Shown piece after piece: positions 30,082-43,743 of a stretch of 45,264 bases of DNA. The translations under genes were made by a program, and so were the position numbers. Position 1 is the stretch's first letter; every line of letters begins with the position of its first letter. The DNA lies in NCBI GenBank assembly GCA_024231775.1, contig JAAEQG010000440.1, forward strand, positions 1 through 45,264. The letters run 5' to 3'. The DNA is from a bacterium (GTDB taxonomy: Bacteria; Planctomycetota; Phycisphaerae; UBA1845). The notes under the pieces are model-generated. The model made no database searches, was not told the DNA's origin, and saw nothing but the letters and a program-made list of their open reading frames with translations.

Positions 30082-30741
30082 TTAGCGACGGCGAATCAGC
30101 GCCAAGGCGCCCATACCCAGCAGAGCCAGGGTCGTGGGCTCGGGCACGAAGGTGATCTCACACTTCATGTCCAGGTGATAGCCGGTTGTCGGGGAGTTCA
30201 GGTTCGGCACCGCCGAACCGGTGGTCCCGATGGTCGGAGCATCGATGCTGCCGAACCAACGGCCTTCCGTAATCGGATAGGCCCCCCCACCAACGACCCC
30301 GTTGTTCGCCCACATCTGGCAGTAGCCATCGGCGGGGACCAGGAACGGGGTGTTGATCGTGACCGTCCAGATCCAGTTCCCCGGATCGGGCAGTTGCGAG
30401 CCGAAGCCGCCCACGTACGCGCCGGTGGTGTCGAAGAACGTGAAGAATACCACACCGTTGCCACCAGCACCCGTAGCACCGCCAGCGAACTTGAACTCCG
30501 TAAGCCAGTTGGTTCCGAGAGTCTCCACGCCGTCGTAGTCATCCACTGCGACAACGCCGCCGAGAGTGCCACTCGATGCCGCCCAAGCTACCGTGAAATC
30601 CATGTTCGAGTAATTAGTCGTGGTCCGCAGGCCTGCGCCGGCGTCCGTCGTCGCAGTGTATATCGGGAGGTCACTACGCTCGGCCATCGCCGGAACCGCC
30701 ACGAAACCAACAATCGCTAATACGGCTAGTAATCGCATCAA
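30082..30741 (-). CDS. PEP-CTERM sorting domain-containing secreted protein
   Basis: Signal peptide ending AMA; C-terminal VPEPTTLALLGMGALALIRRR; GGAGGAG RBS. Confidence 0.93.
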   Translation of the reverse strand: MMRLLAVLAIVGFVAVPAMAERSDLPIYTATTDAGAGLRTTTNYSNMDFTVAWAASSGTLGGVVAVDDYDGVETLGTNWLTEFKFAGGATGAGGNGVVFFTFFDTTGAYVGGFGSQLPDPGNWIWTVTINTPFLVPADGYCQMWANNGVVGGGAYPITEGRWFGSIDAPTIGTTGSAVPNLNSPTTGYHLDMKCEITFVPEPTTLALLGMGALALIRRR

Positions 30742-31443: not shown

Positions 31444-31446
31444 GAG

Positions 31447-31520
31447 TGGGCCCGGAGGGACTCGAACCCCCGACCCATCGATTATGAGTCGACTGCTCTA
31501 ACCAACTGAGCTACGGGCCC
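31447..31520 (-). tRNA. tRNA with CAT anticodon, most likely tRNA-Ile2 (lysidine-modified); CCA not encoded
   Basis: GGGCCCG/CGGGCCC acceptor stem with discriminator A; D-arm GCTCAGTTGGTTAGAGC; anticodon arm GTCGA-CTCATAA-TCGAT; T-loop TTCGAGT. Lacks initiator features (C1 mismatch, three GC anticodon pairs). Confidence 0.92.
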
Positions 31521-35611: not shown

Positions 35612-37972
35612 GTGACGAAGATGTCCATCTGCAGCAGTAGTACTAGGTGTTCGCAGTCAGCACCCCTCGCGGCGAAGGTGTACCGGTGCCGAGGTCGATC
35701 GCTGGCGACCATCATTGCCATGGTTGTGGTGGTATCTGGTCGGGGCGATCCCGCCTGGGGTCAGAGCCAGTCGGCGGAAGTGCGTGAGAGGTGCGACCAC
35801 GCGACGGTCATGGTGCTCACCAAGTACTCCAAGAGTTCTGAGGGTGATACGCTGTTCGGCACGGGATCAGGATACTTCATCAACCGGACCGGTCTCTGCA
35901 TCAGCAACAACCACGTGGTCGATCCCGGCCACCACAAGTCTCAGCAAGAGAAGTTCGAGCTTAAGGGTTCCTTGAACCGCTTGGTATGGAACGTGGTGGT
36001 GGACGGTGGCACCGATGATGAGAAGGTGTATCGCGCCGACGTGCTCTACCAGAACGAGAGGGCCGATCAAGCCCTGTTGCAGGTCTACGGCGAAGACGGC
36101 GATTTTCTGGAGTGGGAACACTATCTGGGTTTCTTCCCAGGGCGCCGGCTGCGAATCGGGCAGAAGGCATGGTGTTACGGATTCCCCGGCGGGAACTCCC
36201 GGAAGGGTGATAAGGGCGAGCACTCGCGCGTCGCGGTGACTGATGGTCACGTCGTGGATCTCCCGCGCCGGCCCGATGGCGACGTCAAGATGATAGAGAC
36301 CGATGTGTTGGCCAATCCGGGCAACAGCGGCGGGCCGTTCGTGGACATCGACGGCAACCTGCTCGGGACGCTGACCCTCGGCGCCCAGACTGAAGGTCGG
36401 ACCAACACGACCGAACTGGTGCCAGCCGACCTGACCAAGGAGTTCATCACCACGGCGTTCCAGCGTGGGAAGGTCCCTTCCGGGATCGACCTCGAGCCGT
36501 TTTATACTCATCTGGTGGGCGAGGACGGGTACGTTGCGGTGCCTGGATACCCCCGGTTGGACAGGTCGGACTGCCTGGTGCTGGAATCGAAGGACCGGAT
36601 GTGCGGCGCTCCGGTCGGCGAATCGATCACGTTACCGACCCCGCTAGGGAAGCTGAGACTGCCTTGTGCCCAGATGGCGTACCTGCTCAAGCAGGATCGC
36701 GAGTTCGGCGTTATTCTGATGGACGGCGGCGAGCGTTTGCCGTTTCTGCGCACCGATCCTGAGGCGGTGATCGAGTTTCGACCGACCGTCGGGAAGGCGT
36801 TCACCCAGGCGTTGGGCAACGTGGAGGCCGTCGCCTTCCGGAAAGGTAACGACCTGGGTGATCCTCCGAGCGGCCGCAATGTGCTGATTGGGGGCACGGG
36901 ATACCACGTGCTAGTCTCGTCGCCGGAGGGTGAAGCTAGGTTCCGCACGAAACTGGGCGTGGAACTGCCCCTGCCTATCGAATCCATCTCTCATGTGAGC
37001 ACCGATAGGACAACCGGCGACCGGATCATCGTGATCACGGACGGGTCCGAGGTTACCGGGGAGTTCCTGCCCCACGAGATTCGGGCAACGCTTTCGATCA
37101 ATGGGGCTCCACTGAAACTCTCTCTGGCGGGTGTGGAATACGCGACGATCGAGGTCCTCAAGGGCAAGGCGCGACGTACGCGAGGCCACAGTCTCATGGA
37201 CCTGTTCGGGGACGCCGCATCCGATATGCAAGGAATGGCGCAGGCTCTCGACAACGGCGAGGTGGAGAAGGTGGAAAGCCAGTTGGCCCGCCGTTACGGT
37301 ACGGCCGTCTTCAAGAGGCAGGCCCCGCTGAAGAAGAATCAGATCCGACTGCTCAGGGGGGTGTGTCACTGGCACAGCGGACGGTACGCTCAGGCCAATC
37401 GCGAGTTCAGGAAGCTCAAACGCTGCGAAGAGGAGGGTATTCGCTGGTACGCGCATGCCGTGGCGGCGGTATACGAGCGGTTTCCCGGCGGGGAATACGG
37501 CGAGCGTCCCCTCAGTGATCCGGCGGTGTTCAAGCAGGCAGGGGCTGTGATAGCGGAGGAGGCCCTGGGGAATGCTCTCGATCTGCTCAGCGAGGTTGAT
37601 GCGCCTCCACCAGGTAATCGCGGGATGTTCATGCGGATGCGTAAGCGGCTTCAGAACCAGTCCGACGACCTTATGGTTGCCAGTCGGCTGGGGAACCGCG
37701 CAGCTGACGACGCCGTTGTGCGAATATGGAATTTCGAGGCTAGACTCTGCGAGGGCGAGATCCGTCGCTTGGAGGAGGAAATCGAGAAGAAGGGAGAGGA
37801 ACTGAGCGGCCTCGATTCGAATGCGCGTCAGTGGAGAGGGCGCCGCATTGAACGAGATGTCGACTCTCTTGTTCAAGCCAGGGATGCCACCGTAGAGTGG
37901 TTTGGCGAGGTTCAGGAACGCCTCGCGGAAGTCGGCTTCATCATTGACGACCCTGATCGGGATATAGACTAG
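35612..37972 (+). CDS. Secreted trypsin-like (S1C) serine protease with long C-terminal extension
   Basis: GTGSGYFI, SNNHVV, D.ALL, GFPGG and ANPGNSGGP catalytic motifs; C-terminal beta-rich, TPR-like and coiled-coil segments. Confidence 0.85.
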   Translation: MTKMSICSSSTRCSQSAPLAAKVYRCRGRSLATIIAMVVVVSGRGDPAWGQSQSAEVRERCDHATVMVLTKYSKSSEGDTLFGTGSGYFINRTGLCISNNHVVDPGHHKSQQEKFELKGSLNRLVWNVVVDGGTDDEKVYRADVLYQNERADQALLQVYGEDGDFLEWEHYLGFFPGRRLRIGQKAWCYGFPGGNSRKGDKGEHSRVAVTDGHVVDLPRRPDGDVKMIETDVLANPGNSGGPFVDIDGNLLGTLTLGAQTEGRTNTTELVPADLTKEFITTAFQRGKVPSGIDLEPFYTHLVGEDGYVAVPGYPRLDRSDCLVLESKDRMCGAPVGESITLPTPLGKLRLPCAQMAYLLKQDREFGVILMDGGERLPFLRTDPEAVIEFRPTVGKAFTQALGNVEAVAFRKGNDLGDPPSGRNVLIGGTGYHVLVSSPEGEARFRTKLGVELPLPIESISHVSTDRTTGDRIIVITDGSEVTGEFLPHEIRATLSINGAPLKLSLAGVEYATIEVLKGKARRTRGHSLMDLFGDAASDMQGMAQALDNGEVEKVESQLARRYGTAVFKRQAPLKKNQIRLLRGVCHWHSGRYAQANREFRKLKRCEEEGIRWYAHAVAAVYERFPGGEYGERPLSDPAVFKQAGAVIAEEALGNALDLLSEVDAPPPGNRGMFMRMRKRLQNQSDDLMVASRLGNRAADDAVVRIWNFEARLCEGEIRRLEEEIEKKGEELSGLDSNARQWRGRRIERDVDSLVQARDATVEWFGEVQERLAEVGFIIDDPDRDID

Positions 37973-38012
37973 ACGGGACCTGCCTCCTTGGCAGCTGAGG
38001 TTGATCGAAGTG

Positions 38013-38438
38013 ATGAGAACTCCTGTATCGGTCCGATTCGCAAGGGGGTACGGGCTTCTGACCGTGCTCGTCCTCTGCCTAGCGTTCGCCGGCTGCAAGG
38101 ATGACGACCCCGGCTTCAAGACCGTTACGCTCTCCGGAACGGTGGAGGCGATCGACCTGGATAAATCGCGGGTGCGAATCACATTCCACAGCGAGAAGTA
38201 CGATCGCGAGATCACCGCCGAAGCAATCGTCACGCCGGAGACCGAGATCCTCATCAACGGTATCGCTGCGGAACTGGCTGATGTTGAGGTGGGCGAGCGT
38301 GCCGAAGGAGAGACCATCGTCACCCATGAGGAGGGGGGTGACCGGGTGATCACCGTGACTCGGGTACGGATTGAGCGGGGCGAGCTGATCGCCCCCATCA
38401 AGCCCGCACCGCCGGGTCAACCCGCCACGGGGTCTTAG
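38013..38438 (+). CDS. Hypothetical lipoprotein (OB-fold/DUF5666-like)
   Basis: FAGC lipobox; GTVEAID....I, V.PETEI.ING....L.DV.VG pattern. Confidence 0.65.
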   Translation: MRTPVSVRFARGYGLLTVLVLCLAFAGCKDDDPGFKTVTLSGTVEAIDLDKSRVRITFHSEKYDREITAEAIVTPETEILINGIAAELADVEVGERAEGETIVTHEEGGDRVITVTRVRIERGELIAPIKPAPPGQPATGS

Positions 38439-38505: not shown

Positions 38506-38533
38506 TTGACATCGCGGAATGTCTCCATACCCT
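38506..38533 (+). promoter_or_regulatory. Sigma70-type promoter of the selenoprotein-cysE unit
   Basis: TTGACA-16nt-TACCCT, about 70 nt upstream of ATG 38602. Confidence 0.45.
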
Positions 38534-38601
38534 TTCATGGTCGTAAGGCGGGCCGGGCTGGGCCGCCTGAATAAGAGGTTGGTTCCTCTGGAGCACCGAG
38601 C

Positions 38602-38829
38602 ATGAAGATCACCATCGAATACTGCGTTGAATGAAACTACACGCCCAAAGCCGCCAGTCTGGCGGCGGCGATCAAGGACGAGTTTGAGGTTGACTGCGAG
38701 CTGATCAGAGGCGGCGGAGGTATCTTCGACGTACATGCAGACGGCGAGTTGATGTTCAGCAAGCATCAGGCTGGACGCTTTCCCGAGCACGCCGAGGTGC
38801 TTGAGCGGATCGCTACGAAAGCTCCGTAG
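38602..38829 (+). CDS. Rdx family (SelW/SelT/SelH) selenoprotein, CxxU; TGA at 38632-38634 read as Sec
   Basis: Not in the ORF track. Reads MKITIEYCVE(U)NYTPKAASLAAAIKDEFEVDCELIRGGGGIFDVHADGELMFSKHQAGRFPEHAEVLERIATKAP*. Rdx motifs lie on both sides of the TGA (I.IEYC..U, G.G.FDV..DG.L.FSK...RFP). GGAG RBS; downstream hairpin. Confidence 0.9.
38642..38670 (+). promoter_or_regulatory. Bacterial SECIS-like stem-loop
   Basis: cgcc-caaa-GCCGCCA-gtc-TGGCGGC-ggcg: 7-bp upper stem starting 15 nt after the UGA, G first in the apical loop, bulged lower stem. Confidence 0.7.
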
Positions 38830-38844
38830 TAGTGAGGATGGGTG

Positions 38845-39807
38845 ATGGACTTCTCCCTGGGTGATCGGCTGGCGGGTCTGGTCGACCGCATGATCGTGAG
38901 CTACGACGCCAACGATGCGACTCGTCATATCGAACGAGCGTTCTTGCCCTCGCGGCGGCGGGTTGTCGAGATGACCGAGAAACTGCTCGAGCTCATCTAT
39001 CCCGGGTTCCTCGGTCGCCAGAACCTGAATCGGCATAACGTACAGTATCACGTGGGGGAACTTCTGCCGCTGGCGGGAGATCTGGTCTTCAGTCAGAGCT
39101 ACGAAGCCCTCTGCTACGTCGAGTCCGCGGCGCAGCCTGAGCAAGATGACCGCAAGCCTTGCGATCGCAAGGCCCGACAGATCACTGAGCAGTTTCTCGA
39201 ACGCCTGCCGGACGTGCGGGACTCCCTGGCGGCGGATGTCCAGGCGGCGCTGGATGGCGACCCCGCGGCGATGAATACCGACGAGATCATCCTGGCTTAT
39301 CCGGGAATGTTCGCGGTGTCCGTGTACCGGTTGGCCCATGAGTTGCATACCCTGGGCGTACCCCTGCTGCCACGGATCATGACCGAGTGGGCTCACTCGG
39401 TGACCGGGGTGGACATTCACCCGGGCGCCCGCATCGGGCGGAGCTTCTTCATCGATCACGGAACCGGGGTGGTCATCGGCGAGACCACCGACATCGGCGA
39501 TGACGTCAAAATATACCAGGGGGTCACCCTCGGAGCCCTGTCGTTTCCCAAAGACGAGCGCGGCCAGTTGATCCGTGGAGCCAAGCGTCACCCGACGGTC
39601 TGCGACCACGTGACGATCTACGCCAACGCGATTGTGCTCGGCGGCGAAACCGTGCTGGGCGAGGGTGCGGTCATCGGCGGATCAGTCTTCGTGACCAGCA
39701 GCGTGCCACCCCACTCGACGGTCACCATTAAACCTCCGGATCTGCGCATTAAAGACCACTCCCCAGCACCCGAGACCGGGGCCGCGGAATCGGGCCAAAA
39801 GAAGTAA
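38845..39807 (+). CDS. cysE: Serine O-acetyltransferase (long EpsC/CysE type)
   Basis: DV.AA..GDPAA, YPG..A...YRLAH, TGVDIHPGA.IG..FFIDHGTGVVIGET, IYQGVTLG and KRHPT motifs. Confidence 0.92.
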   Translation: MDFSLGDRLAGLVDRMIVSYDANDATRHIERAFLPSRRRVVEMTEKLLELIYPGFLGRQNLNRHNVQYHVGELLPLAGDLVFSQSYEALCYVESAAQPEQDDRKPCDRKARQITEQFLERLPDVRDSLAADVQAALDGDPAAMNTDEIILAYPGMFAVSVYRLAHELHTLGVPLLPRIMTEWAHSVTGVDIHPGARIGRSFFIDHGTGVVIGETTDIGDDVKIYQGVTLGALSFPKDERGQLIRGAKRHPTVCDHVTIYANAIVLGGETVLGEGAVIGGSVFVTSSVPPHSTVTIKPPDLRIKDHSPAPETGAAESGQKK

Positions 39808-41205: not shown

Positions 41206-43743
41206 TCAGGCGTTCATGTCATCCCAACGCTTAGCCAACTGGCCAAAGATAAAGAGGGCAATGGCGGCGATCACCCCAATCGCCGCAAACGGAATCCACA
41301 CCCGGTACTGCGGTCCGTACCGATCCCAGAGGTGCTTCGTAGTCGTTAACCCCGAGTGGTTGATCTCCGCGGCGACCACCGCCCGAGCTTCGTACGGGTT
41401 CAGACCCAACAGGTGGGCAGCCTGATCCGGGACCTGCGACCAGTCCTTGGCGGCCAGCGCCAGCTGGATGAGATCCTGCTTCCCCGCCAGGCGGGTGTAG
41501 TTTACCCCCTCCGGGGTCACATCAGCCGGGTCGTCGCCGCTCCCGAGCCACCCCATCACCCGCTCGCCCAGGGTGCTATGGTCGATGCCCGCCAGGACTA
41601 CCCGTAGCGCAGCTTCGTCCGAGCCGATGAGCGCACGCAATAGCTTCCGGTCCCGGGACCAGTCCTTCCTCGCCACCGCCGCGAACCGTTGATACTCCTG
41701 ATTGACCAGGTACACGAAGGCCCGATCCGCCAGGTTCTGGGTGGGGACGTCCAGTTTGCCCAGCTCTTGATCGACGGCGGCGGGGTCGGCCCCGGTGGCG
41801 GCGCTGAGGGCGGGAAACGACTTTGTCCGGCCGATGCCGAGACGCTTCTCGATTTCCCCGATCCGCTCACCCATAGCTTCAACCGGATGCTGGAACGCCA
41901 TGCGTTGGGCGGCGTCGTGGACCAGGTCAGACGCCTGAGCCAGATACTCCAACGCCAGGTTATTGAGCACCTCCGGGTCATCGCCGAAACGCTGCCAGAG
42001 CAGCTCGACGACCTCCCCATCGTCCAGCCCCTGGCCGGAAGGCTGATCTTCGTTGACCATCGTGCAGACCCGCCCGAACGCGGAAGCCCGGTTCTCCCCC
42101 AGGGCGGCGGGAAGAGCGCTCACCCAGGCAGCGGGTTTCACCTCGGCAGGCGTTGCCGTTCCATCCGCCAGGCGCGTACCCAAGCCGTCGCCAAGGGGCC
42201 TGTACCGCTCCTCTTGGAGCACCTTGGGCAACTCCGCAGCTACACTGTCGCGATACTGCTCGGAGGCGCTCATGTACAGCAGCGCCAGATTGGTTATCTG
42301 CCCGCGGTCATTGGCGAAGAGACGACGCAGGGCGTCGGCGCCCTGTTCGTTGTTCATCTTCAGGTGAGCACACGCGGTGTCGAACGCTTCGGCGCGATTC
42401 AGACCCGTCAGCGTGGGCACCAGCTCCAGGGCATCGCTCCAGTCGGAGGCCTGCGCCGCCCGGGCGAGCAACGCCGGGCGCGTAGCCATCTCCTTCAACG
42501 CCAGGGTCGCCTTCTCCCCATAGGTTCCGTAGACATGGCCGGCGATCCACGATCCGAACCCGACGCCAATGCCGATGGGGATGTTCACGTAGCCCAGATA
42601 CAAACCCTTCTTGCCCGGGGGGGCGATCAAGCTGAGGTATTGGTTCTTCTTCGGGCCGGTGAGCATCTCGCCTAAAGAGAAGCAGATGATGCCCAGGAGC
42701 AGGATCCAACCGTTATCGGTCAGGCCAGCCACGAGGACTCCGGCGGTGGCTATGAGCATGCCGATGAGCATCGCCGATAGCGTGCGCATCTTGCGTACTA
42801 GCCAGGAGACCGGCACCATGAAGAACACGATCAGCAGGGCGTTCAGCGAGATAAGCACCTGCTGGGGTACGCGAATCAGTCCGCGGTCTCCCATTTCCTG
42901 CCAGGAATCGAAGGGCATGTACGCAGCCACCATCGAGCTGTCGATCCAGTCCTCGATGAAGTTGGGCTGCAAATCCCAGAGCTGGTACATCATCAGCCAG
43001 AAGCATGACATTATCAGCAGCCAGGTGATCAGGCGCGGCTCGACCACGTTGACAATGGTACGCCGCAAGACTTGCAGGGGGCTTTCACTCTTGGACGCTC
43101 CGGAAGGAACGTCTTTGAAGGTGAACAGCATCAGATAATTCATCGCCGTACACGCAGCGCAGAACAGGAAGACGTTCCGCCATCCATCGGAGCTGTGAGG
43201 CTGACCGAGCAGCAGTGGTGAAATGTAGTGGCCCAGCACGGACCCGACGTTGACCACCCAGTAGAAGATTCCCCAACCCAGGGACGAGGTCCCCTCGGTC
43301 AGTTGGTGGGCGATGGTGCCCTGCAGCGCCGGCTTGAAGAACGCGGTACCGATCGCCAGGGTGATGATGCCCGCAAAGAACCCGAGATAGCTGTGGGTGT
43401 AGGCCATCAGCAGGTACCCGAAGATGTTCATCGTAACCGCGAATGAGAGGGTCTTCTTGTACCCGTAGCGGTCCGCGTAACCTCCGGTGACCATGGGGAG
43501 GAAGGATTGGAAGATGGCCCACCACATGTAGATCCAGCCCTTGGTGGCCTGGGGCAGGTGCAGACCACCGGGTTCACTGGCTTGGCAGATGTAGATGGGG
43601 GCGATCGGCCGGAGCACGTAGTAGGCCAGCCGCTCCCACATCTCGATGGCGTTGCACATCCAGTATGTTGCCCCCAGCCGGCGTTCGGTCACTGGAGGAG
43701 TCGGGGGCGAGGCGGCGGTAGGTTCGCTCATCTGGACGCACAT
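41206..43743 (-). CDS. MFS transporter (POT/peptide-transporter-like) with a ~400-aa insertion before the last TM helix
   Basis: EMWERLAYY (ExxER motif), GGYADRYGYKK, GTAFFKP, FYWVVNVG and GEMLTGP motifs; 845 aa. Start 43743 or 43731. Confidence 0.85.
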   Translation of the reverse strand: MCVQMSEPTAASPPTPPVTERRLGATYWMCNAIEMWERLAYYVLRPIAPIYICQASEPGGLHLPQATKGWIYMWWAIFQSFLPMVTGGYADRYGYKKTLSFAVTMNIFGYLLMAYTHSYLGFFAGIITLAIGTAFFKPALQGTIAHQLTEGTSSLGWGIFYWVVNVGSVLGHYISPLLLGQPHSSDGWRNVFLFCAACTAMNYLMLFTFKDVPSGASKSESPLQVLRRTIVNVVEPRLITWLLIMSCFWLMMYQLWDLQPNFIEDWIDSSMVAAYMPFDSWQEMGDRGLIRVPQQVLISLNALLIVFFMVPVSWLVRKMRTLSAMLIGMLIATAGVLVAGLTDNGWILLLGIICFSLGEMLTGPKKNQYLSLIAPPGKKGLYLGYVNIPIGIGVGFGSWIAGHVYGTYGEKATLALKEMATRPALLARAAQASDWSDALELVPTLTGLNRAEAFDTACAHLKMNNEQGADALRRLFANDRGQITNLALLYMSASEQYRDSVAAELPKVLQEERYRPLGDGLGTRLADGTATPAEVKPAAWVSALPAALGENRASAFGRVCTMVNEDQPSGQGLDDGEVVELLWQRFGDDPEVLNNLALEYLAQASDLVHDAAQRMAFQHPVEAMGERIGEIEKRLGIGRTKSFPALSAATGADPAAVDQELGKLDVPTQNLADRAFVYLVNQEYQRFAAVARKDWSRDRKLLRALIGSDEAALRVVLAGIDHSTLGERVMGWLGSGDDPADVTPEGVNYTRLAGKQDLIQLALAAKDWSQVPDQAAHLLGLNPYEARAVVAAEINHSGLTTTKHLWDRYGPQYRVWIPFAAIGVIAAIALFIFGQLAKRWDDMNA

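What the first reader, a model, noticed from the sequence alone, without database searches (positions are those of the whole stretch)
38602..38829. Hidden CxxU Rdx-family selenoprotein with in-frame UGA and SECIS hairpin
Seen: ATG 38602 with an RBS, TGA at codon 11 exactly in the second position of a CxxC-type motif (YCVE-U), an open Rdx-like frame for 64 more codons, and a stem-loop at 38642-38670. Established: SelW/SelT/SelH (Rdx) proteins carry CxxU/CxxC, and bacterial SECIS elements lie just 3' of the UGA. Inference: this organism recodes UGA as Sec. Standard gene callers would miss or truncate this gene, and to my knowledge the Sec trait is little studied in this lineage.
Basis: partly seen in the sequence, partly recalled or inferred. 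Interest (0 to 1): 0.72.

Follow-up and report, generated by a model that had tools for sequence, protein, structure and literature searches.

The report
Truncated-in-databases bacterial SelW-like selenoprotein gene
A small redox-protein gene carries an internal UGA stop codon that is very likely read as the amino acid selenocysteine, so a database lists it cut short; it is a correct catch but an ordinary member of a bacterial protein family known since about 2005.

Summary
Confirmed and ordinary. 38602-38829 encodes a 75-aa Rdx/SelW-like protein with C8-x-x-TGA11; the read-through passes the cut-offs of PF10262, TIGR02174 and NF041051, and Cys aligns to the TGA in solved homologues. The genome holds selA, selB, tRNA-Sec(UCA) and a TGA-containing selD. 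TGA is kept in 110 of 110 related loci. The conserved SECIS is the upper hairpin 38650-38666, not the whole 38642-38670: it covaries, and in a family-based sample it is in 30 of 30 TGA genes and 0 of 18 Cys-codon genes. The database call is a 56-aa stub lacking the motif. Against: 39 of 150 database homologues show Trp there, most likely mis-decoded TGA. Sec insertion and substrate are untested. The family is long known, Sec use in planctomycetes was reported in 2016, and this scan noted such a gene before in another Planctomycetota genome. Side lead outside the window: alpha-2-macroglobulins with TGA at the thioester cysteine (24 of 27 metagenome hits), also noted earlier by this scan on other DNA.

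The parts
38590..38593 (+). Shine-Dalgarno-like GGAG, 8 nt before the ATG
   Evidence: sequence; function inferred
38602..38829 (+). Rdx/SelW-like gene, 75 aa when TGA11 is read as Sec; no signal peptide visible
38623..38625 (+). Cys8 codon, first residue of CxxU
   Evidence: invariant in 40 aligned proteins
38632..38634 (+). in-frame TGA, predicted Sec11
   Evidence: TGA in 110 of 110 related loci; Cys at this column in the 4 PDB alignments shown
38650..38666 (+). conserved bacterial SECIS hairpin: 6-7 bp stem, loop AGUCU with invariant G at 38657; -12.0 kcal/mol
   Evidence: fits the model in PMC13188914 Fig. 2 legend
38842..39807 (+). downstream neighbour, serine O-acetyltransferase (CysE/EpsC-like), starting 12-15 nt after the Rdx stop; likely co-transcribed; not required for the finding
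   Evidence: TIGR01172 166.7 bits, under its cut-off 210.65; NF041874 149, cut-off 150; linked in 7 of 21 kin loci

Best explanation
The gene has a conserved in-frame UGA at the second position of a CxxC-type motif, followed by a conserved hairpin, in a genome that encodes selA, selB, selD and tRNA-Sec; it very likely makes a 75-residue SelW-like selenoprotein that likely acts as a small thiol/selenol oxidoreductase on an unknown partner. Shown: the frame, family membership, the machinery genes, conservation of TGA and of the hairpin. Inferred from established bacterial Sec biology: SelB-GTP-Sec-tRNA binds the hairpin's loop G and delivers Sec to UGA11, in competition with termination. Predicted: the product folds as an Rdx domain with Cys8 and Sec11 in the loop between the first strand and first helix, where they would cycle between selenol/thiol and a Se-S bond. 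Untested: Sec insertion, expression, activity and substrate.
For: PF10262 71.4 bits; NF041051 89.6 (cut-off 88); TIGR02174 59.3 (cut-off 34.2). SelA C1193, SelB C1143 (652-aa frame with winged helix), tRNA-SeC(tca) C763, SelD with one TGA C360; their contigs lie within the genome's tetranucleotide range. TGA in 30 of 30 kin matches and 80 of 80 other loci. Core stem 95.5% paired, 49 cells changed on both sides, 0 of 500 shuffles as high, above all slid controls (75 of 110 rows, one of them a wrong-strand row). Full 5-bp stem in 83 of 109 sequences against 10-13% after synonymous recoding. Hairpin in 30 of 30 TGA genes and 0 of 18 Cys-codon genes. In 151 class genomes all 22 with an Rdx gene have TGA and SelA; none of the 96 without a SelA match has an Rdx match. 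Model pLDDT 92.1; TM 0.87-0.93 to bacterial SelW-related structures, 0.68 to mouse SelW. Other TGA genes of known selenoprotein families in the same genome: FdhA, two HdrA, a TlpA-like protein, two DUF1573-like proteins.
Against: No expression or proteomic evidence. 39 of 150 best database homologues read Trp at this column; their DNA was not seen. Two of the 30 kin genomes with the TGA gene (G004, G007, both 90% complete) gave no selA match and no SelB over the cut-off, though both have tRNA-Sec (65-70 bits) and a TGA-containing selD. The genome is a 1677-contig assembly with 6% contamination and a second SelB fragment on a 928-nt contig; selA runs off its contig end. The loci were found with query-derived patterns and kin are not independent, so counts overstate independent support. 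Part of the hairpin's conservation follows from the conserved helix-1 residues.
Confidence: 0.96

Rival explanations
1. The TGA is a true stop or an assembly error, and the gene is dead or makes only the 56-aa C-terminal stub from CTG 38659.
For: The public gene call is exactly that stub. TGA is the commonest end of long open frames in this genome (1575 of 3556).
Against: The same TGA in 110 of 110 loci across many phyla; the first ten codons are conserved and carry the RBS and Cys8; the stub lacks strand 1 and the motif.
Confidence: 0.015
2. UGA is read as Trp (or Gly) under a changed genetic code, giving a CxxW protein.
For: 39 of 150 database homologues show W at this column.
Against: TGA ends 1575 long frames here; the one tRNA-Trp found has CCA and the only UCA tRNA is tRNA-Sec. 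No TGG at the column in 110 + 48 loci. The 8 W clusters examined come from contigs of at most 2154 nt, and 31 of 41 W proteins carry the hairpin-compatible residue signature of the TGA genes against 13 of 64 Cys proteins, as expected if gene callers mis-decoded TGA.
Confidence: 0.01
3. UGA11 is read through mostly with Cys or another near-cognate residue, and the hairpin is a by-product of the protein sequence.
For: 65 of 150 homologues have Cys; helix-1 residues constrain the hairpin's letters.
Against: Synonymous recoding gives the full stem in 10-13% against 76% observed; paired amino-acid changes (Ala/Ala to Ser/Glu in 25 of 109) keep the stem; 0 of 18 Cys-codon genes have it; the gene tracks SelA.
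Confidence: 0.015

Closest known systems
Bacterial SelW-like (SELENOW-like) selenoproteins, Pfam PF10262 Rdx, NCBIfam TIGR02174 CXXU_selWTH and NF041051 SelTWH_Campy
   Same: CxxU near the N-terminus, about 75 aa, in-frame UGA with a 3' bacterial SECIS; passes all three cut-offs. Listed as a high-confidence predicted family in PMC13188914 Table 1; 48 genes in the Sargasso data (PMC1088965) and 427 in GOS (PMC2398784).
   Different: Nothing in the protein. New only as to host group: a near-universal gene of one order of what is probably class Phycisphaerae (22 of 23 order genomes, 0 of 128 others in the class sample), often near rho, a metal-dependent hydrolase and cysE.
Cys-containing bacterial Rdx proteins with solved structures (PDB 2fa8, 3dex, 2oka, 2obk, 2ojl, 2p0g)
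   Same: Same predicted fold (TM 0.87-0.93); CxxC aligned to CxxU.
   Different: Cys instead of Sec; Cys-codon genes lack the hairpin; 27-34% identity.
Animal selenoprotein W (2npb) and MIEN1/C17orf37 (2ljk)
   Same: Rdx fold (TM 0.68 and 0.77).
   Different: Eukaryotic Sec decoding uses a SECIS of another structure (PMC13188914) in the 3' untranslated region (recalled); partners of the animal proteins need not apply.

Membership tests
Rdx / SelW-like family | Score above the curated cut-offs of PF10262 and TIGR02174 | tested here: met
   71.4 vs 22.6 bits; 59.3 vs 34.2; also NF041051 89.6 vs 88
Rdx / SelW-like family | CxxU/CxxC motif after the first strand, Cys in homologues at the U column | tested here: met
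   C8xxU11 after strand 3-8; Cys in 4 of 4 PDB alignments shown and 65 of 150 representatives
Rdx / SelW-like family | Thioredoxin-like Rdx fold | tested here: met
   predicted model with Cys for Sec, pLDDT 92.1; best matches are SelW-related structures
Rdx / SelW-like family | Thiol/selenol oxidoreductase activity | not testable with these tools
   needs an assay; PMC13188914 says functions of these predicted families are largely uncharacterised
Bacterial selenoprotein | In-frame UGA conserved at a Cys column | tested here: met
   110 of 110; 28 of 31 matches in another phylum have TGA, the three others Cys codons
Bacterial selenoprotein | SECIS: 3-9 nt loop, 4-16 bp stem, G in first two loop positions, 16-37 nt from UGA, at most -7.5 kcal/mol | tested here: met
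   own implementation of the model quoted: loop G 22 nt after UGA, 7 bp, -12.0 kcal/mol; bSECISearch itself not run
Bacterial selenoprotein | selA, selB, selC, selD in the genome | tested here: met
   other contigs of a 6%-contaminated assembly, composition compatible
Bacterial selenoprotein | Selenium in the protein | not testable with these tools
   needs 75Se labelling or mass spectrometry
UGA=Trp or UGA=Gly genetic code | TGA not used as stop; tRNA-Trp/Gly with UCA | tested here: not met
   TGA ends 1575 of 3556 long frames; the only UCA tRNA found is tRNA-SeC

The most novel reading that the evidence does not exclude
The Sec codon also works as a selenium sensor for the gene behind it: when Sec-tRNA is scarce, ribosomes stop at codon 11, the rest of the Rdx message is left bare, and polarity lowers cysE, so that O-acetylserine supply is tied to selenium status. 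cysE starts 12-15 nt after the Rdx stop here and lies within 1.3 kb downstream in 7 of 21 kin loci, with rho upstream in 7 others. The linkage is loose and may be plain inherited gene order.
Probability: 0.05. Interest if true: 0.6.

Novelty: new member of a known kind. Interest (0 to 1): 0.2.

Why it matters
It fixes an annotation: the public call is a 56-aa stub that starts inside the SECIS and lacks the active-site motif, and 34 of 150 best database homologues are cut the same way. It also shows that one order of probable Phycisphaerae uses Sec almost throughout and keeps this gene only in the Sec form, with SelA in 55 of 151 class genomes. That is useful for selenoproteome catalogues, not new biology. 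The function of bacterial SelW-like proteins is an open question, but this uncultured locus does not make it easier to test than known members. The side lead, alpha-2-macroglobulins with a UGA at the thioester cysteine, would matter much more if Sec is inserted, because the trap would use a selenoester in a non-redox role.

Tried and rejected
Reads: 3 runs listed, all with small shares; no RNA holder listed. One 151-nt contig of X1 covers 38618-38768 without differences, but the TGA is 14 nt from its end, depth 2.8, and the run may be the source, so it is not counted. Promoter and terminator scan found nothing above shuffles; a lone TTGACA at 38506 has no good second hexamer. The longer hairpin 38642-38670 as the conserved element: rejected. 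Folding 100 nt from the UGA gives a different, unremarkable structure (z -0.87). A fixed Rdx-cysE operon: only 7 of 21 kin loci, some limited by contig ends; no cysE match in the 80 non-kin loci. DNA of the Trp-type database proteins: not obtained; the viral scan gave 3 spurious hits, one inspected, and an order-level search reached only 42-46% relatives, all 3 with TGA. Plasmids: 26 distant records under 60% identity, codons not inspected. Tree of 110 Rdx rows: 74 columns, many forks open; 26 of 30 kin rows fall in one group (94/89, not starred) with four Planctomycetota-titled records, so neither one origin nor transfer is shown. The class name Phycisphaerae rests on that tree and on record titles, not on marker genes. 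The genome-wide TGA screen used a weak codon model and printed many false candidates; it is not a full selenoproteome. The alpha-2-macroglobulin pattern was found in 1 of 401 class genomes, only this assembly. Taxa for the macroglobulin clades remain unknown. Text searches in PMC12013277 and PMC5029168 for Planctomyc, SelW and macroglobulin gave 0 hits (figures and their supplements not seen).

Full report
Observation. The sequence shows GGAG at 38590-38593, ATG at 38602, Cys8 at 38623, TGA at 38632-38634 and 64 further open codons to TAG at 38827-38829. The hairpin 38642-38670 folds at -17.5 kcal/mol, z -3.06. The window is contig C440 of a 6.7-Mb, 1677-contig assembly, 97.6% complete and 6% contaminated.

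Family. With the TGA read through, the 75-aa protein passes the cut-offs of Pfam Rdx PF10262 (71.4 bits), TIGR02174 (59.3) and NF041051 (89.6). Seven PDB sequences match, and Cys aligns to the TGA in the four alignments shown. An AlphaFold2 model with Cys for Sec has pLDDT 92.1 and matches bacterial SelW-related structures at TM 0.87-0.93 and mouse SelW at 0.68; the motif lies between strand 3-8 and helix 14-28.

Machinery. The assembly encodes SelA (C1193, cut by its contig end), SelB (C1143, 652-aa frame with winged helix), tRNA-SeC with anticodon UCA (C763) and SelD with its own in-frame TGA (C360). These contigs have a tetranucleotide distance within the range of the long contigs. One tRNA-Trp was found, with CCA, and TGA ends 1575 of 3556 long frames, so the code is standard. 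A rough screen found further TGA genes of known selenoprotein families: FdhA (C348), HdrA (C1206, C1241), a TlpA-like protein (C651), two DUF1573-like proteins (C1314, C1501) and two secreted thioredoxin-like UxxC proteins (C1314, C1323). The HdrA, DUF1573 and thioredoxin-like labels are recalled from motifs, not from a profile hit. The FlpD/MvhD and NiFe-hydrogenase matches had no stop inside.

Conservation of the UGA. Thirty of 41 kin genomes have the gene, all with one TGA. The 80 best of 149 confirmed loci from other genomes also all have TGA. In a family-based search of another phylum, 28 of 31 matches have TGA. In 151 genomes of the class, 22 have an Rdx gene, all in this order, all with TGA and all with SelA; SelA is in 55 of 151. 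Against: G004 and G007 have the TGA gene but no selA match and no SelB above cut-off; both are 90% complete and have tRNA-Sec and a TGA-containing selD, so assembly gaps are the likely cause. Kin are not independent.

SECIS. The conserved element is the upper stem-loop 38650-38666 with loop AGUCU. On all 109 distinct sequences the loop G is invariant, the full stem is in 83 of 109 against 10-13% after synonymous recoding, and Ala/Ala changes to Ser/Glu together in 25, which keeps the pairing. In 48 loci (two repeat earlier loci) the stem with loop G is in 30 of 30 TGA genes and 0 of 18 Cys-codon genes. The element meets the four constraints of the bacterial model quoted in PMC13188914 (passages; my check).

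The Trp test. Among the 150 best of 738 representative proteins, the column has Cys in 65, Trp in 39 and other letters in 12, and 34 start after it. However, no TGG was seen in any DNA, the 8 Trp clusters examined come from contigs of at most 2154 nt, and 31 of 41 Trp proteins carry the hairpin-compatible residues against 13 of 64 Cys proteins. I infer that gene callers chose a UGA=Trp table on short contigs; their DNA was not seen.

Annotation. The collection holds this gene as a 56-aa product that starts at CTG 38659, inside the SECIS, without the motif.

Neighbourhood. A serine O-acetyltransferase gene follows after 12-15 nt. In 21 kin loci (20 fetched plus the window) cysE lies within 1.3 kb downstream in 7, a metal-dependent hydrolase downstream in 9 and rho upstream in 8. 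The order rho, Rdx, hydrolase, cysE looks like a decaying inherited cluster; a functional link is possible but not shown.

Mechanism. Most likely SelB with Sec-tRNA binds the hairpin and inserts Sec at UGA11 (established mechanism, inferred here), giving a small cytoplasmic Rdx protein whose Cys8-Sec11 pair would do thiol/selenol exchange on an unknown partner (inferred). Confidence 0.96 for Sec; stop or error 0.015, Cys read-through 0.015, Trp code 0.01.

What is known. SelW-like CxxU proteins were the most abundant family in the Sargasso data (PMC1088965, passages) and in GOS (PMC2398784, passages), occur in cultured anaerobes (PMC1794560, passages) and stand in Table 1 of PMC13188914 (section 7 parts 1-2 of 3). 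The Sec trait was reported in four planctomycetes (PMC4807772, passages); its candidate table lists no SelW-like protein (supplement S9 read whole). BSepDB's genome list has 139 occurrences of Phycisphaer (PMC13326102, passages and supplement search; file cut when stored; the database itself not seen), so these genes may already be catalogued. Searches (listings only, apart from the papers named) showed no paper on this gene in Phycisphaerae; PMC8938466 (passages) reports sel genes in about half of its sediment MAGs without naming the class. This scan had noted the same kind of gene in another Planctomycetota genome (e1-4844531). The class is inferred from record titles and a weakly resolved tree.

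Side lead. The TGA screen turned up contig C1152 (774 nt) with an alpha-2-macroglobulin fragment whose thioester motif reads YPYG-TGA-AEQ. A pattern scan of metagenomes gave 27 loci; 24 are macroglobulin frames open on both sides of the single TGA, in several groups at 25-100% identity, and 3 are chance hits. They use TGG for Trp and several end in TGA, so this is not a changed code; a stem of 4 or more pairs with a loop G 16-24 nt downstream is in 20 of 23 distinct sequences against 8.3 expected after synonymous recoding, though many stems are weak. The family is not in Table 1 of PMC13188914, no NCBIfam model matched two of them at E 1e-8, and two literature searches listed nothing relevant. 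No Cys-codon control or SelA co-occurrence test was done. The pattern is in 1 of 401 class genomes, so C1152 may be a contaminant; composition could not tell. I found it before looking, but this scan had already reported it several times on other DNA.

Verdict. Real, correctly read, new member of a known kind; interest 0.2.

Noticed in passing
G000:C1152:661-663 (L173); metagenome loci L146-L172: Bacterial alpha-2-macroglobulin with an in-frame TGA exactly at the thioester Cys (YPYG-TGA-xEQT): 24 of 27 pattern hits are open macroglobulin frames in several divergent groups, with a loop-G hairpin in 20 of 23 distinct sequences (8.3 expected). Likely an uncatalogued selenoprotein family whose trap would use a selenoester; absent from the 119-family table of PMC13188914; noted before by this scan on other DNA. 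C1152 may be a contaminant of this assembly.
   Followed up: partly
G000:C1314 (- strand, offset 20570) and G000:C1323:2867 (L174, L175): Two secreted multi-domain proteins with an N-terminal thioredoxin-like UxxC (T-U-GGC, G-U-SHC), good hairpins and a Cys paralogue on C545; family not assigned.
   Followed up: partly
G000:C1314:17514 and G000:C1501 (- strand, offset 5925) (L174, L177): Two secreted Ig-like proteins with GG-U-G where a paralogue on C882 has SC-GC; resemble DUF1573 selenoproteins (label recalled), but Sec would replace the first Cys of the motif.
   Followed up: partly
G000:C348, C1206, C1241, C651, C360: In-frame TGA with hairpins in FdhA, two HdrA-like genes, a TlpA-like DUPGC protein and SelD.
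   Followed up: partly
G000:C452:1-928 (L003): Second, divergent SelB C-terminal fragment on a tiny contig, probably contamination.
   Followed up: no
L126-L145: Loose cluster rho - Rdx(Sec) - metal-dependent hydrolase (PRK00685) - cysE in the family.
   Followed up: partly
P0007-P0156: Database artefact: 39 of 150 Rdx homologues carry Trp at the Sec column and 34 are N-terminally cut, probably mis-decoded or skipped TGA.
   Followed up: partly
window 41206-43743 (-): 845-aa MFS/POT-family transporter with an insertion of about 400 residues, without a Pfam match, before its last helix.
   Followed up: no
window 30082-30741 (-): 219-aa secreted protein ending in a PEP-CTERM-like tail (motif recalled).
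   Followed up: no
window 31446-31520 (-): tRNA with CAT anticodon.
   Followed up: no
window 35612-37972 and 38001-38438 (+): 786-aa trypsin-like peptidase and a 145-aa lipoprotein-like ORF without Pfam match, upstream of the Rdx gene in the two same-genus genomes that have it.
   Followed up: no
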